A DNA stretch of 64,000 nucleotides from assembly GCA_951406725.2 (NCBI GenBank), contig OX597817.1, positions 41,726,001 to 41,790,000 of the forward strand, written 5' to 3'. The position numbers were made by a program, and so were the translations under genes. Under the pieces are notes generated by a model that had not been told where the DNA came from, ran no database searches, and saw only the letters and a program-made list of their open reading frames with translations. The stretch is from Octopus vulgaris (Eukaryota). Below are positions 8,051 to 22,140 of this stretch, one piece after another (positions within the stretch are counted from its first letter, which is position 1; each line of letters opens with the position of its first letter).

Positions 8051-9899
8051 AGAGGATTCTGTAGAGCATGTAACAAAATACTTAGTTTATAAATACATTT
8101 CTTCACTTCTGCTAAGGTGAGACTTGGCCTTTCATCCCCCCAGAGTCAATAAATACAGTTCCAATTAAAATAAAAAAAAAAAAAAACAGTTGATTTAATC
8201 TTATCTAATTTCCCCCAAAATGTCTGACTATGTCTAAGAAATCTACAGAAATCCAACAACTGCACTGGCAAATACACGTCTAAATTACCTAAACTTTAGT
8301 AACTCTCTCAGAGATAAAACAAAATCTTTGTACCTGGTTTGTAGATATGAAAACCTTACATATTCTTCCAGGAAGCTTTTCATCTAACATTTTCTATTGA
8401 AAATTAATTCTAGTACTTTATCCAAGCTATCTACACTTTTACAGCCCGTTCCTTCTAAGACAAAGACACCAAAGACTTTACTTAGATTAATAGCCTTTCA
8501 AACATTTTTATCTCATGCTCATAAATTACTAACCAAAGGACTACTGGCATCCTTCATGTTTCTCAGCTATTCTTGGAGATAGAACATTTACTTGAAAAAC
8601 ATGCATTATTTCGAATACTTTGATGTTAATATGACTTGTTACTGATTTGTGCACTTTGTAACAGTCATTTTCTACAGCTTTCAAGTTGTTTATTCCTAGC
8701 ATTCTTCTGTAATTCCATTTGGTTCAAATAACTATATTTAATAAATATGCATGCATGCATATCTATCTATCTATAAATATATATATATATATATATAAAA
8801 TCAATATTTGTGTAAATGCTTTTACTCGAGTCAGTTGTCTATAGTTGTGGATAATCCACTCTACTAAGCTACTATAAAACTACGGATAAGTGACTATTTT
8901 ACATGGTTCTGAGAATAAGATAGTAAATCACATTAACAGAGAAGCTATTTTCAGTTCTCTTAACTTTTTCAGTATCAACCTACATGAAATTGGACACTAA
9001 AATATTTGTATTAAGATTTCACTGGAAATTTCCATTATAACATGAATAATAAGATTTTAGCTGCTCAAACACATTACAAATAAATAGAGATTTTACTAAG
9101 GTATTCTAAAATCTTTATTATGAAAATTGAGACTCATTAGAAAGATAGTCAATAAAGGGTTAACAGGTTTTCAAGAGCAAAATTTCTTATTAATCCTTTC
9201 GCAATTAATTTTCTGTCTTAATCTGGAAAATAATGAATATGCAAGTGCTTAGTTAAAATAAGCTATCTTTTAATTATTGGACTGGTGTCTGCCTGAACAT
9301 GCCAAAATGTCCTAACATTAAAAAAAAAAAATATCGGCTTTAATTCAATCCATTTTTATAGATTATTTTGGTAGAATCCTTAGAGTCCTTAATATTAGGT
9401 TTTAATTTAAATATAATTTAAATGAGAAGTTTTGTATTAGGCAGTCAAAAGCAGGTTAGTGTTAAATGTTAATCAAGCCACGACATCTTGTAGTGTTAAG
9501 TAATTAATCAAATCACATCTTATGAATAATGCTGGGTTTCACCTCTTACAATTTGTCTTACACAGCTGACTTTATGATTATATTTTCTATGCATTCCCCT
9601 ACATTTTCTTCCAAGTTACCAGTTGATTTCTAATTCCAACTGAAAGGATTTTTCTAACTGAAAGCTGCTTAAAAATGCGAGCAATTACTTCCATTAATTT
9701 ATTACCTTACTGAATCTTACAAAAGCTTTTAGTCAGCAATATATAAAAAATTATTTCTGAATTAAGAGGGGCTTAAATGCAAATTAGATTTTTGTTTAAA
9801 AAACAAAAATTGTCACAAATATCAACTAATGTTAGATTTTTGCTGTAAATAGTAAGGTTATCTTATAAAGATGGAGTTTGATTTTTTGCCAATCTTGTT

Positions 9900-17218: not shown

Positions 17219-17600
17219 TCAGGCACATGCCGTGAGTAATTACTCAAGGTAGGCAGTTGGTGGAGTTTATGTAGTAAAACACAAAATAAGCAAAACACAG
17301 ACACAAGACCGAGTTGGAGGTAGATTTACTTCTGCCTTTATAGCGTGTATAGAAAACATTGTAGGAATGTATACAGCACATGTACTACAGCAGTACTAAG
17401 TGAAATTTTACTACTGAGATTGAAAGGCAGAGGCGAATTATGCCTACCTAACCTACAAAAAAATAAAATATTTTGCATAACAATCAGAGAAACGTTCATA
17501 ATTTTATTGAATTTGTTGCATATTTTATCATAAAAGGAAAATGTTACGATCGATTTATTTCATTCGGGGTAGGCACTGCCTACCTAGACAGCACGTCAGA
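17218..17600. mobile_element. Non-autonomous DNA transposon (MITE, hAT-like)
   Basis: Imperfect inverted termini CAGGCACATGCCGT..AGGTAGGCAGT / ACTGCCTACCTAGACAGCACGTC. Confidence 0.5.
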
Positions 17601-18165
17601 TATACATAGCTATTATATATACACATACACCCATGACTATATGTGTTTAGGTTTGTTCCCCCACCACTGCTTAACAGGTGTGTGTTAGTTTATGTTCATA
17701 TAAGTTAGCATTTCAACAAGCGACTGATAGAACCAGATTTTTTTTTTTAATAAGTACTAGGGTTGATTTGTACAACTAAACCTTTCAAGGCAGTGCCCTA
17801 GCATGGCCACAGTCAAAAGGTTAAAGTAGGGGGAGGGGAATGATTTCAGCTTGGGAAGAATAAGAAGTTATTGTCAAAGAACATGTAAAAAAGCAAATGC
17901 AGAGATGCAATCAGTCCTTCGTGACTCACAAAAGAAAATAGATATGTGAAGCTATATCAGTAAAACCAATTACACATTGAAGATAAAAACTAAGTTTATG
18001 TTCAACAGCAAAATCTACAAGGAAATAAACCACCACCCACAAATACATGCAAATTCCACAATATATTAATACATCCTTCTTTGACAAGGCTTCACCATAT
18101 GCAACAATTCACAATAAGATAACTAGAAATGCTTAGCCCGTTATCTCATTTCTCTCCATAATCAC

Positions 18166-18294: not shown

Positions 18295-18343
<49 letters not shown>

Positions 18344-18543
18344 AGAGGTAATGGTGTCATTGAGACCCAAAGGTGTCGGGTAATGCTGAATAAGTACTAT
18401 AGACAGACCATAGTTAAGTTCTAGATTCGGTAATATTGTGAATAAAGGGTTCAACGATGGTTCTATGTCAGCGTGTGTATATAAGAATTTTTTGCGTAAT
18501 AAGAAAAAACTAACGCTGTATAGATAAGAGCATTTATAGATAG

Positions 18544-18591
18544 GTCTTACAGCTATTTCTAGGATATTAATAATATCCCTTCATCGGAGAC
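18544..18591 (-). ncRNA. Minimal type-I hammerhead ribozyme motif (CCGAUGA core variant)
   Basis: GTCT-CCGATGA-A-GGGATATT att AATATCCT-A-GAAA-TAGCTG-TA-AGAC: helix I GTCT/AGAC, helix II hairpin, near-palindromic helix III. Confidence 0.6.
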
Positions 18592-18682
18592 AGTGTGAGA
18601 GGAAAAAAAGTCACTCACTCCACCTCACTCTCCATTTTGTATCACATCTAAACTAACTATGATTTAATTTTCTTCTGACACC

Positions 18683-18734
18683 GTCTCCGATGAAGGGATA
18701 TTATTAATTAATATCCTAGAAACAGCCGTAAGAC
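18683..18734 (+). ncRNA. Minimal type-I hammerhead ribozyme motif (CCGAUGA core variant)
   Basis: GTCT-CCGATGA-A-GGGATATT attaatt AATATCCT-A-GAAA-CAGCCG-TA-AGAC. Confidence 0.6.
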
Positions 18735-18792
18735 CTATCTATAAATGCTCTAATATCTATACAGCCTTGGTTTTTTTATTACGCAAAATATT

Positions 18793-18837
<45 letters not shown>

Positions 18838-19958
18838 GTTTACATTGTGTTTTTACAACATAACTCATCTTCATTTACTGTCAGTTTTTTTTTTTATGCT
18901 GGTGTGAGGCGGATGGTTAGAAAGGATTCAAGAAGCTCTGGAGGACTGCATTGAGTGCCAATGTCAGTTTTGACATGGTTTTTGCAGCTGGATGCTCTTC
19001 CCAACAGCAACAAATTTACAGTGTGTACTAGGTGCGTCATATTTTTTTCCTTGTGTAGGTGTGTCTTTGGCACTAATGAGGCTGTCGAGCAACTTAGAAG
19101 ACAATAGAAGAGAAGGCTAAAAGAAACCCTCAACTGAGGATGAGGGGGTGTATTTGGCTACTAGTAAAGTTATATTAATAGATTTAATGCAGAGAGCAAT
19201 AAAAAGTTAATTAGAAATAATTATGCAATGAGATAAAAGACAATATTAATGTCCAATATTCTAATTATTCCAGCAAGTAGACAAGACAACTTGAGATATT
19301 TTGGTTCGTTAAACTTCCTCAGCAAAGCACAGACTTAACCATAATTGTTGAAGTAGTTTTCAGAGAATCACTAAAATGCACAATATTGTACACAGTTTCT
19401 TGTGTTAAATTTTAGAGACTAAATTAATGAGACACCTGATTGCTGTGGTAAAAAGTTTTATGAGCCTTGTCAGATTGTCGCAGTACCACCAAAGGCTATA
19501 GTGATTCAAGAGAGACACAGTGGAAGGATTTACCCTCATTTTCTAGGTCTACATTAAAAGCTGAAAAGGAGGTTTCCAGATGAACTGAAGGAATACTGCA
19601 AAGGTTCTATAAGGCTATAAATTTCAATTACTATCAGCAAAGTTACAAAAGAATGAGTCTGAGCATGGCAAAGATTGATTATCAGAAAGCCTTTGACACT
19701 ACTCCCCACAATGGATCCTAGAAATGTTGGCTATGAATAAGGAAGAATGAGTAACAAAAAGATACATGAAAAATCATGAATAAATAGCAAGCAATTTGCA
19801 TAAAGGAAAAAGGGAACTGTAACAAAAATTCTGTTAGAGAAATATTCCTTAAGAATTCTTATTTCATTCCTTTTCTGACTGCCATTAACGGCAACAATCA
19901 ATCATCCTTTGTTTATGCACAATTTCAACTTGTAAGCTATAGATAAACAACTAGAAAC

Positions 19959-20380
19959 ACAGGAGTGGCTGTGTGGTAAGTAGCTTGCTTACCAACCACA
20001 TGGTTCCGGGTTCAGTCCCACTGCGTGGCATCTTGGGCAAGTGTCTTCTGCTATAGCCCCGGGCCGACCAATGCCTTGTGAGTGGATTTGGTAGACGGAA
20101 ACTGAAAGAAGCCCGTCGTATATATGTATGTATATGTATGTGTGTGTGTGTGTTTGTGTGTCTGTGTTTGTCCCCCTAGCATTGCTTGACAACCGATGCT
20201 GGTGTGTTTACGTCCCCGTCACTTAGCGGTTCGGCAAAAAAAGTAACCGATAGAATAAGTACTGGGCTTACAAAAGAATAAGTCCCGGGGTCGATTTGCT
20301 CGACTAAAAAGGCGGTGCTCCAGCATGGCCGCAGTCAAATGACTGAAACAAGTAAAAGAGTAAAAGAGAAAAAAAGAGTA
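19959..20380 (+). mobile_element. Full-length young tRNA-derived SINE, family A
   Basis: Head GGAGTGGCTGTGTGGTAAG...GGTTCAGTCCC (A/B-box-like), internal (TA/TG)n, tail (GTAAAAGA)n; CpGs retained. Confidence 0.92.
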
Positions 20381-20533
20381 CTACAGCAGACAGTACATGA
20401 AGTTACAAAAGAAATTGAAAGGAGATTCAGATTTTGAAAATGCACCAAGATAACACTGAAGTGAGGAAAATTATGACCACCAATATAATACATTATTTAC
20501 ATTTGACAAATATTTGTCCTTATCTTTGTTGTT

Positions 20534-20579
20534 GACACAACATTTCAGCTAATATACTCTCCAGCCTTCATCAGGTGTC
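20534..20579 (-). ncRNA. Minimal type-I hammerhead ribozyme motif
   Basis: GACAC-CTGATGA-A-GGCTG gagagtatat TAGCT-GAAA-TG-TT-GTGTC; intact CUGAUGA/GAAA core and 5-bp helix I. Confidence 0.75.
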
Positions 20580-20810
20580 TTGGGGAAATTTCAAACCTGG
20601 GTTCTCATTCCTAAGATATTTATCAATATTATTATTGATATTATTATTATTATTATTCAGGTCACTACCTGAAATAGAATCTTGAGGTTAGTAGCCTGTG
20701 CTCTTAACCAAGATTCCGAGTTCTATTCCAGGCAGTGACCTGAATAATAATAATAATAATAATAATAGAAATACCTTAAGAATGAGAACCCAGATTCAAA
20801 ATTTCCCCAA

Positions 20811-20856
20811 GACACCTAATGAAGGCTGGAGGGTATATCAGCCGAAACATTGTGTT
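20811..20856 (+). ncRNA. Minimal type-I hammerhead ribozyme motif, core mutated (CTAATGA)
   Basis: GACAC-CTAATGA-A-GGCTG gagggtatat CAGCC-GAAA-CA-TT-GTGTT. Confidence 0.6.
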
Positions 20857-22140
20857 AATAACAAACAAGATGAGGACAAATATCCGTTGAATGTAAATAA
20901 TGTAAATAGTGTACATAATTCCTCATCTCTTAAATATTGAGCTGTATAATATAATACTAGTTAAAGAAACTTAGGTTAAGAGAATTACAACACAGACAAT
21001 TACTTAGGAATCGAACTAATATTAAGAAGAGATATAAATGCATCAGATTAATTAAAACAGCTAAATGCAAAAACAAAACAAAACAAAAAAAGGTACGAAT
21101 ATACTGTCCAGTTAATAAGTTATATTCTCAACTAGATGTTAAAAAATAATGATTGCATTTAGAATACACAATCCAAAATCTGAAGTAGAAAGATTTATCA
21201 TAAAGAGAGGTAGGGATCATGCGCAACAAGAAAGCTTAAAATATCTAGTAAGGGATAATGGAAAACTAATACAAATATGAACAGAACAAAATTTTTTTTT
21301 CTTTAAGTAAGCTAACAAATACATAAATGAAGCTGACATGACTTTTGAAGAAAAAGTAAAAGCCAACAAAAATTGTGAAAGATTAAATCTAAGCTAAAAA
21401 TAGGACAATAGAATACCATGGTAAAGTGAAAGCAAGAAAAGCCCCCATATGGCCAACACCTGAAAAGGTGGAAGAAGACAAGGAAAATTTGAAATACTGG
21501 ATGTGAAGCACAATCATGGCACAAGTCCAAGGCCTTTCCAGCAGAAACCACAAGAAGCATGTAATGAAGTAGAGCATAGCAGCTGTAGAATATGTGGAAA
21601 TGAAGAAACAATTAACCATATTGTTTCAAGTTCCTCAGTCAAGAAAGAAATATGTACCAATGTTAAACAGTTGGGGGTTTACATGCACTGGAAGTTAAGA
21701 CAGCATTATGAAAAACCTACAGAATAGACAAAGTATACATTGAAAAAGGTCTCAGTGATTGAAAAAGCAAGAGTCTGCAATATGCCAATACATACACAGA
21801 CAGACAGACATCATATATCTTGTGAAGACAAGTGCCTCACCAAATATCAGTTCCAATAGATGATAATGGATCTTATAGGAAAGGAAAAACTATTCAAATA
21901 TAAAAATCTGGGAATAAGGAAAAACCCAATACAGTGGGCCTGAAAACAGAAACATTCTCTAATAATAGGTGCCTATGAAATCATTAAGAAAAGAAAACCC
22001 AAAAGCATGCAATACATAACCAAAACTCCAGGACTTCCAAATATGCACAATATACAGAAAATAGCATAATGAATGAAATGGGAAATAAGGTGAGCTTCTA
22101 ACAAAGTAGGAAGTTTTAAAAAACCTATCTCGGTGCTTAC

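What the first reader, a model, noticed from the sequence alone, without database searches (positions are those of the whole stretch)
18341..18800. Second, unrelated inverted hammerhead element with a non-canonical CCGAUGA core
Seen: ~130-bp inverted arms, both with GTCT-CCGATGA-A-(GGGATATT..AATATCCT)-A-GAAA-(C/T)AGC(T/C)G-TA-AGAC. Helix III reconstructs as the palindrome CAGCTG. Both arms share C at core position 4 and an unpaired A.A at the base of helix II, so the variant predates the duplication. The geometry mirrors the 20.5-kb element (one arm has extra 5' sequence, the other extra 3'), although the sequences are unrelated. It lies between (AC)n and (AT)n tracts. Inference: a PLE pseudo-LTR or retrozyme family with a natural U4C hammerhead variant and possible microsatellite targeting.
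Basis: partly seen in the sequence, partly recalled or inferred. Interest (0 to 1): 0.7.

Follow-up and report, generated by a model that had tools for sequence, protein, structure and literature searches.

The report
Retroelement lineage with U4C hammerhead core
This is a pair of truncated tail ends of a Penelope-like jumping gene joined head to head, from a lineage of over two thousand copies whose hammerhead RNA motif swapped a nearly invariant core U for C, likely in one event, and then kept the rest of the motif unchanged, so it likely still cut itself slowly, though cutting is untested.

Summary
Observation confirmed. 18341-18800 is two 5'-truncated 3' ends of a Penelope-like element (PLE) joined head to head: one arm stops at a short end, the other carries a 137-nt tail. 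Longer copies lead into a broken RT plus GIY-YIG ORF with Hydra-clade motifs. Copy ends abut (TA)n (57 of 80, background 2-7%). It is not a MITE or a retrozyme. CCGAUGA is the master state: 2,410 of 4,601 exact family matches carry it. In the window's subfamily, CUG and CCA copies are equally rare (10 and 12 of 100), as CpG decay predicts. A tree built without that site puts the C4 subfamilies in one clade (98.7/96) nested among CUG relatives. After the change, 0 of 26 ribozyme positions changed against 34 of 164 flank positions (p=0.004; 0.02-0.04 in stricter versions; core alone not significant). The A.A mismatch is older than U4C. Two copies fold into a double hammerhead; one does not. This locus is likely dead. 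U4C is known from a viroid; I found no paper on a retroelement fixed for it. The scan noted C4 families in this genome before, on other DNA. Cleavage is untested.

The parts
18295..18341 (.). (AC)n tract abutting the long 3' end of the left arm; reads (TG)n on the element's strand
   Evidence: most long ends in the family abut (TA)n instead (18 of 29)
18341..18477 (-). 137-nt 3' tail, present on the left arm only
   Evidence: (19 of 82 copies end at this long end)
18478..18613 (-). Left arm: 5'-truncated pseudo-LTR copy, part shared with the right arm
18544..18591 (-). Left hammerhead motif: helix I, CCGAUGA core (C4 at 18586), A.A mismatch, helix II with a 4-nt deletion, GAAA, helix III with a private C-to-T change, predicted cut between 18548 and 18547
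   Evidence: sequence
18614..18617 (.). Head-to-head junction between the two truncated 5' ends
   Evidence: arms end at 18613 and start at 18618 by alignment to other copies
18618..18797 (+). Right arm: 5'-truncated pseudo-LTR copy ending at the short 3' end
   Evidence: (47 of 82 copies end here)
18683..18734 (+). Right hammerhead motif: helix I 18683-18686 with 18731-18734, core CCGAUGA 18687-18693 (C4 at 18688), A.A mismatch 18694/18718, 9-bp helix II, GAAA 18719-18722, helix III with a private T-to-C change, predicted cut between 18730 and 18731
   Evidence: sequence
18741..18747 (+). TATAAAT box just downstream of the ribozyme, kept in subfamilies B, C, D and A; possible pseudo-LTR promoter (inference)
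   Evidence: a TATA plus Inr in rotifer Penelope pLTRs is described in PMC3846280 (passages)
18796..18834 (.). (TA)n target tract abutting the short 3' end
   Evidence: 39 of 51 short ends abut (TA)n

Best explanation
The 460 bases are two 5'-truncated 3' ends of a Hydra-type Penelope-like retrotransposon joined head to head between microsatellites, and the CCGAUGA core is the fixed state of its lineage, which likely kept a slow, dimer-dependent self-cleaving hammerhead after a single U-to-C change. Shown: family identity, the RT-endonuclease ORF upstream in longer copies, two fixed 3' ends and variable 5' ends, (TA)n flanks, C4 as master state, one C4 clade nested among CUG families, no later change at the other 26 ribozyme positions. 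Inferred: the element's endonuclease nicks (TA)n, reverse transcription primes at one of two TAT-ending sites downstream of the ribozyme and stops early, and a second, inverted truncated copy completes the insertion. Predicted: in source transcripts two motifs pair through the 8-nt palindromic helix III and cut after GUA at a reduced rate. This locus itself is likely inert: each arm has a helix III change, the arms lie on opposite strands, and a read-through RNA is predicted to zip into one long hairpin.
For: ORF link: L081 carries RT motifs and an endonuclease with CxCx5C, CxxC before E and CxH after N, about 1 kb upstream of the motif; 8 of the 10 best endonuclease loci show the motif downstream, 7 with C4; stops are private to single copies. 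Master state: 77 CCG, 10 CTG, 12 CCA, 1 CCC in the first 100 of 281 subfamily-A matches (hand count) against 87 CTG and 4 CCG in the first 100 of 168 subfamily-B matches (hand count); 42 C and 6 T among 48 copies chosen without using the ribozyme. One origin: clade of 53 of 97 sequences, SH-aLRT 98.7, UFBoot 96, position 4 masked. Constraint after U4C: 0 of 26 against 34 of 164 (p=0.004), A branch alone 0 of 26 against 25 of 164 (p=0.019), ribozyme-independent sample 0 of 26 against 13 of 102 (p=0.044). Fold: one copy forms helix II only, two copies co-fold unconstrained into the double hammerhead (-32.7 kcal/mol). U4C lowers but does not abolish activity in a viroid (PMC3088659, passage).
Against: No cleavage data. 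The 12 core positions alone give P(no change) 0.06 (A vs C2) and 0.14 (A branch), not significant. Older subfamilies C2, D and others were collected with a pattern that fixes 18 ribozyme letters, which inflates apparent conservation in them; consensuses rest on 3-25 copies. No compensatory change in helix I or III within the family. 5' ends do not pile up clearly at the predicted cut: 6 observed against 3.9 expected. The motif stacks several weakening features: U4C, an A.A or A.G mismatch at the base of helix II, a G.U pair next to it, a 4-bp helix I. PLE minimal hammerheads are slow even with a normal core (PMC4209133), and Naiads thrive without a canonical one (PMC8557442, passage). No full-length intact copy was seen among 21 long loci.
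Confidence: 0.62

Rival explanations
1. Same element, but U4C killed catalysis: the ribozyme is dispensable for this PLE, and the lineage went on amplifying with a dead motif that has not yet decayed.
For: U4C considerably lowers activity in vitro (PMC3088659). The base of helix II weakened further after U4C (G-C to G.U). No significant pile-up of 5' ends at the cut. Core-only conservation not significant. Craig et al. suggest hammerheads may be dispensable or parasitic on PLEs.
Against: Flanks changed at 15-21% of positions after U4C while helix I, core and helix III together did not change at all. Two late changes in helix II both create pairs (7 to 9 bp).
Confidence: 0.2
2. Same element, but the motif is kept for a job other than cutting: the palindromic helix III pairs two RNAs or the fold marks the priming region for the element's RT, which could also explain the one-short-one-long inverted pairs.
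For: Dimer fold needs no catalysis. 15 of 18 inverted pairs combine one short and one long end (p=0.004). The only excess of 5' junctions lay inside the palindrome, at -7 (9 against 3.3 expected, p=0.005 before and about 0.07 after correction for 14 positions).
Against: Single-stranded core letters are unchanged too, which pairing alone would not need (not significant by itself). The short-plus-long layout is general for PLEs (PMC3846280, PMC8557442).
Confidence: 0.14
3. A self-spreading unit of its own: a MITE with terminal inverted repeats, or a non-LTR retrozyme.
For: The element is short, non-coding and palindromic; hammerhead-bearing retrozymes derive from PLE ends (bioRxiv 10.64898/2026.07.22.740005, abstract, introduction and start of methods).
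Against: Most copies are single arms (18 of 70 loci hold an inverted pair); inner junctions differ from copy to copy; the two outer ends are different sequences; no head-to-tail arrays of the motif were the rule in the loci read; long copies continue into an RT ORF.
Confidence: 0.03

Closest known systems
Hydra-clade Penelope-like elements (Craig et al. 2021, PMC8557442; section 11, passages and supplement Files S1, S2 and Fig. S7 text read), e.g. Hydra-1_Obim, Hydra-1_Amil, Penelope-1_NV
   Same: C-terminal GIY-YIG endonuclease with CxCx5C linker, CxxC and CxH, no CCHH; RT motifs match the Hydra rows by eye; (TA)n targets; a hammerhead near the 3' end; helix III ACAG/CUGU with GUA in Hydra-1_Amil, Penelope-1_NV and Penelope-1_SK; a mismatch at the base of helix II is common there (U.U in many Hydra magnipapillata families, C.A in PLE-X1_cBra).
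   Different: Every hammerhead row in File S2 has CUGA; this lineage has CCGA. The mismatch is A.A or A.G. The hammerhead is unlike that of Hydra-1_Obim, so this is another family. 3' UTR about 1 kb and an asparagine-rich (AAT)n linker make it longer than the <3 kb typical elements if complete (inferred). Tail 137 nt against 30-40.
Minimal dimer-dependent hammerheads of metazoan PLE pseudo-LTRs (Cervera and de la Pena 2014, PMC4209133; introduction, results, discussion read)
   Same: Type I topology, long helix II, 4-bp helix I, palindromic helix III, extra nucleotide after A9, solo copies and pairs 100-700 bp apart on opposite strands.
   Different: Their core variant is U3-A8; U4C is not mentioned in the parts read. 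Here a second unpaired purine sits before G12.
U4C hammerhead of a viroid (Ambros and Flores 1998, not held; known here through a passage of Perreault et al. 2011, PMC3088659)
   Same: Same core change; reported as much slower in vitro but enough for infectivity.
   Different: A single natural variant of an RNA pathogen (peach latent mosaic viroid, recalled) with a full-size ribozyme, against a change fixed in a genomic retroelement lineage across several successive subfamilies.
Head-to-head insertion units of endonuclease-positive Penelope elements (Arkhipova et al. 2013, PMC3846280; passages read)
   Same: Inverted truncated pLTR, optional tail on one arm, TATA plus initiator-like sequence in the pLTR, N-rich inserts between RT and endonuclease.
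   Different: Here no ORF lies between the arms, and a target duplication cannot be read inside the microsatellites.

Membership tests
Penelope-like element (EN+) | RT followed by C-terminal GIY-YIG endonuclease upstream of the terminal repeat | tested here: met
   L081 broken ORF with RT motifs and YIG-type endonuclease; Pfam GIY-YIG match is only E=0.4, below cut-off, so the call rests on motifs and the Hydra alignment
Penelope-like element (EN+) | 5'-truncated copies, inverted head-to-head pairs, tail on one arm | tested here: met
   tail is longer than described
Penelope-like element (EN+) | Full-length copy between direct pseudo-LTRs with one intact ORF | tested here: inconclusive
   none among 21 long loci; the longest start inside the RT
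Hydra clade | CxCx5C linker, CxxC before E, CxH after N, no CCHH | tested here: met
   seen in the endonuclease translations of 18 copies, with private decays; definition
Hydra clade | RWK and DKT motifs in the N-terminal RT region | tested here: inconclusive
   no fetched copy reaches that region
Hydra clade | Insertion into (TA)n | tested here: met
   39 of 51 short and 18 of 29 long ends against 1.5% (window) and 7.4% (outer parts of loci) background
Hydra clade | Placement in an RT tree with Hydra references | not tested
   reference proteins were seen only as supplement text; comparison by eye
Hydra clade | Canonical CUGANGA hammerhead | tested here: not met
   C4 in this lineage; met in the older sister subfamilies F, B and C1. 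The clade is defined by protein, so this marks a variant
Type I hammerhead ribozyme | Core C3 U4 G5 A6 N7 G8 A9, G12 A13 A14, A15.1-U16.1, H17 | tested here: not met
   all met except U4
Type I hammerhead ribozyme | Three helices around the core | tested here: met
   as a dimer in unconstrained co-folding; monomer forms helix II only; no covariation in helix I or III within the family
Type I hammerhead ribozyme | Site-specific self-cleavage | not testable with these tools
   indirect test by 5'-end pile-up inconclusive
TIR MITE | Fixed, mutually inverted ends and constant internal structure | tested here: not met
   single arms, variable junctions, unlike ends
Non-LTR retrozyme | Head-to-tail tandem units, no ORF link | tested here: not met
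   dispersed copies linked to an ORF; one direct pair seen (L151) among 60 loci

The most novel reading that the evidence does not exclude
A retrotransposon lineage fixed the U-turn change U4C and kept using the ribozyme through several further subfamilies and over 2,000 insertions: a naturally down-tuned, dimer-gated hammerhead, with its canonical-core ancestors preserved in the same genome as a ladder that shows how much cleavage a Penelope-like element needs.
Probability: 0.5. Interest if true: 0.6.

Novelty: new variant of a known kind. Interest (0 to 1): 0.42.

Why it matters
What hammerheads do for Penelope-like elements is unsettled: they may process the RNA, or merely ride along. This family offers matched natural sequences, CUG in subfamily C1 and CCG in its direct descendant C2 with the ribozyme otherwise identical, and later subfamilies that add helix II changes one at a time. 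One cleavage series would show whether selection kept a slow ribozyme or a non-cutting fold. It also shows that CUGANGA descriptors miss about half of this family's motifs, and that apparently canonical copies in the young subfamilies are CpG decay products.

Tried and rejected
Rfam scan: no hammerhead family at E<=5. Monomer folding: not better than shuffles. Idea that CUG copies are revertants or the active minority: rejected, CTG and CCA are symmetric (10:12, p=0.83); about half of the CTG hits belong to older sister subfamilies. Idea that CUG families are decayed CCG: rejected for subfamily B (87 CTG, 4 CCG, no CCA in 100). Pile-up of 5' ends at the cut: looked suggestive, but the enriched set (68 matches, 65 loci, 56 kept after dropping full-length and non-matching arms, 41 in the tested range) gave 6 against 3.9 at +1; my caller mislabels a few arms, and a hand count gave 8, so the result is inconclusive. 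The same test on a CUG subfamily returned 5 matches only. Search for an intact full-length element: none in 21 long loci. Protein database search with the endonuclease piece against longer proteins: nothing at E<=0.001, weak evidence. Sequencing runs: no RNA holder listed, contigs only. L052 does not run from the tail into an ORF, so I could not show that the tail is the start of the next unit. Row L119 was given on the wrong strand and was ignored. Papers not held: Lunse et al. 2016 on PLE hammerhead variants and Ambros and Flores 1998; the first, with its supplements, may already list U4C in PLEs.

Full report
OBSERVATION. The window lies at G000:C4:41726001-41790000 of a 2.8-Gb animal assembly; I recall the SINE at about 19960-20340 as an octopus type, and earlier scan notes say the same, but no call names the organism. 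The two arms are real: minus strand 18613 to 18341 and plus strand 18618 to about 18797, joined by their 5' ends, sharing about 135 nt. Both carry GTCT, CCGATGA, A, helix II, A, GAAA, helix III, TA, AGAC. Each has its own change in helix III. (AC)n and (TA)n tracts flank the pair. Rfam finds no hammerhead and the single arms fold no better than shuffles.

THE FAMILY. The right arm has 2,436 candidates in the genome; the 40 scored, apart from the window itself, are 90-96% identical. A pattern made of core, spacer and helix III matches 4,601 places (control 1), 2,410 of them with CCG (control 0). Copies are 5'-truncated at many positions and end at two fixed sites downstream of the ribozyme: of 82 copies, 47 at the short end, 19 at the long end 137 nt further on, 16 elsewhere, mostly older subfamilies that stop aligning (hand count). 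In a sample chosen by a motif downstream of the ribozyme (70 loci taken from the first 100 of 1,238 matches; 88 arms), 39 of 51 short and 18 of 29 long ends abut (TA)n, against 1.5% and 7.4% of random positions (the test window starts 4 nt inside the element). 18 of the 70 loci hold an inverted pair, and 15 of these combine one short with one long end (p=0.004; three are cut by the locus edge). The window's element is of this type. That layout is the described PLE insertion unit (PMC8557442 and PMC3846280, passages).

THE PARENT ELEMENT. L081 (G000:C12:41839500-41849400) is a larger inverted pair whose direct arm runs about 1 kb upstream from the ribozyme into a broken ORF with RT motifs, an asparagine-rich linker and a GIY-YIG-type endonuclease. 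Pfam gives only E=0.4. The endonuclease has CxCx5C, CxxC before the conserved E, CxH after the conserved N and no CCHH, the features given for the Hydra clade (PMC8557442 section 11), and the RT follows the Hydra rows of that paper's alignment by eye. 8 of the 10 best endonuclease loci show the ribozyme downstream, 7 with C4; L096 holds the region by BLAST and L093 ends before it. Stops are private to single copies, so the source ORF was likely intact where covered. No full-length copy, and so no RWK or DKT motif, was among 21 long loci.

IS C4 THE MASTER STATE? In subfamily A, the window's own, the first 100 of 281 matches are 77 CCG, 10 CTG, 12 CCA and 1 CCC (hand count). Equal CTG and CCA is what CpG decay of a CCG master gives (p=0.83). 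Among 48 copies that span the ribozyme in the ribozyme-independent sample, position 4 is C in 42 and T in 6, position 5 is G in 39 and A in 8. Sister subfamily B is canonical: 87 CTG, 4 CCG, 6 CTA, 3 other in the first 100 of 168 (hand count). Contigs from runs labelled as three other organisms (B, C, D) list no C-to-T row at 18688 at the 5% threshold, so C4 likely predates their split; the labels are coded and kinship unknown.

ORDER OF EVENTS. I aligned 97 sequences: 65 motifs from 60 loci taken in order from the head of the list (some already held or duplicated were skipped) and 32 from earlier sets, where CTG copies were oversampled on purpose. With position 4 masked the tree is a ladder: F, B and C1 carry CUG; C2, D0, D and A carry CCG. 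The CCG subfamilies form one clade of 53 (SH-aLRT 98.7, UFBoot 96, rooted on F). A is the least diverged group (6.1% from its majority line against 10-14% for F, B, C1). Two CCG copies lie outside the clade (L108, L100). All hammerhead rows in the Hydra table of PMC8557442 File S2 have CUGA, which supports U as ancestral. The unpaired pair at the base of helix II is older than U4C: C.A in F, A.A in B and A, A.G in C and D, A-U in a few; U.U at this place is common in published Hydra hammerheads.

WAS THE RIBOZYME STILL UNDER SELECTION? Between C2 and A, both after U4C, 34 of 164 flank positions differ and 0 of 26 positions in helix I, core and helix III (p=0.004); on the A branch alone 25 of 164 against 0 of 26 (p=0.019). 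In the ribozyme-independent sample, sites split between sublineages number 13 of 102 in flanks and 0 of 26 in the ribozyme (hand count; p=0.044). Helix II lost its basal G-C to G.U and then gained two pairs. Against this: the older subfamilies were collected with a ribozyme pattern, the majority lines rest on 3-25 copies, the 12 core positions alone are not significant (0.06 and 0.14), and invariance gives no covariation.

HOW IT LIKELY WORKS. A natural intact motif folds alone into helix II only; two copies co-fold without constraints into the double hammerhead with an 8-bp shared helix III. This fits PLE minimal hammerheads, which cleave weakly and as dimers (PMC4209133; PMC6765202 section 11). 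U4C is reported to lower activity considerably in vitro while allowing viroid infectivity (PMC3088659, passage). I therefore infer a slow, dimer-gated ribozyme in the source elements. An indirect test failed to decide: 5' junctions at the first base after the cut were 6 against 3.9 expected, while -7, inside the palindrome, had 9 against 3.3. The window's locus is likely inert: both helices III are damaged, the motifs are on opposite strands, and a read-through RNA folds into one hairpin (-193.7 kcal/mol).

NOVELTY. PLE hammerheads, head-to-head pairs, (TA)n targeting and the Hydra clade are known. U4C is known as a viroid variant. Searches for hammerhead with U4C (one paper), with CCGA and uridine turn (none), with CCGAUGA among other terms (no occurrence in the 15 listed), with octopus and retrotransposon and with core variants and Penelope showed no retroelement family fixed for C4. 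Lunse et al. 2016 was not available and may hold it. Earlier notes of this scan report C4 hammerheads in Hydra-type ends elsewhere in this genome; I could not tell which are the same family (sequence look-up empty). They are unchecked and add no independent support.

VERDICT. Real, correctly read, a new variant of a known kind. Element identity and fixed C4 are near certain; continued slow catalysis is about an even to modest bet. Interest 0.42.

Noticed in passing
window 20489-20904: The second inverted hammerhead pair: arms about 86% alike, core CTGATGA (left) and CTAATGA (right), G-C at the base of helix II, no extra purine before GAAA, (AAT)n near the centre. No similarity to the 18.5-kb family or to its long copy; likely another PLE family.
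   Followed up: partly
window about 19300-19800: Decayed reverse-transcriptase-like reading (AKIDYQKAF motif) in the plus-strand flank, resembling an R4/Dong-type LINE (label recalled).
   Followed up: no
window about 19960-20340 and 17560-17820: An abundant SINE-like repeat, recalled as an octopus type; similar sequence often follows the (TA)n tracts next to family copies.
   Followed up: no
subfamily F, e.g. L108 (G000:C1:4846770-4848017): About 8 of the first 100 CCG matches have the long helix II of subfamily F, which is mostly CUG (9 of 10). Either ordinary T-to-C decay or a second, independent U4C sublineage.
   Followed up: no
L081 2525-3489 and 5861-6834: The two arms of this large inverted pair are 97.7% identical over 977 nt while copies differ by 10-15% and its ORF carries several breaks; suggests homogenisation between inverted arms after insertion.
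   Followed up: no
family-wide, 7 nt upstream of the predicted cut: Excess of 5' junctions inside the helix III palindrome (9 against 3.3 expected; about 0.07 after correction).
   Followed up: partly
L084 about 8750-9790: A different PLE-like RT fragment inserted just downstream of a family copy.
   Followed up: no
L248 (G000:C4:55238739-55241780): Inverted pair whose junction uses the 4-nt helix I sequence as microhomology, joining the post-cut side of one arm to the ribozyme start of the other.
   Followed up: no
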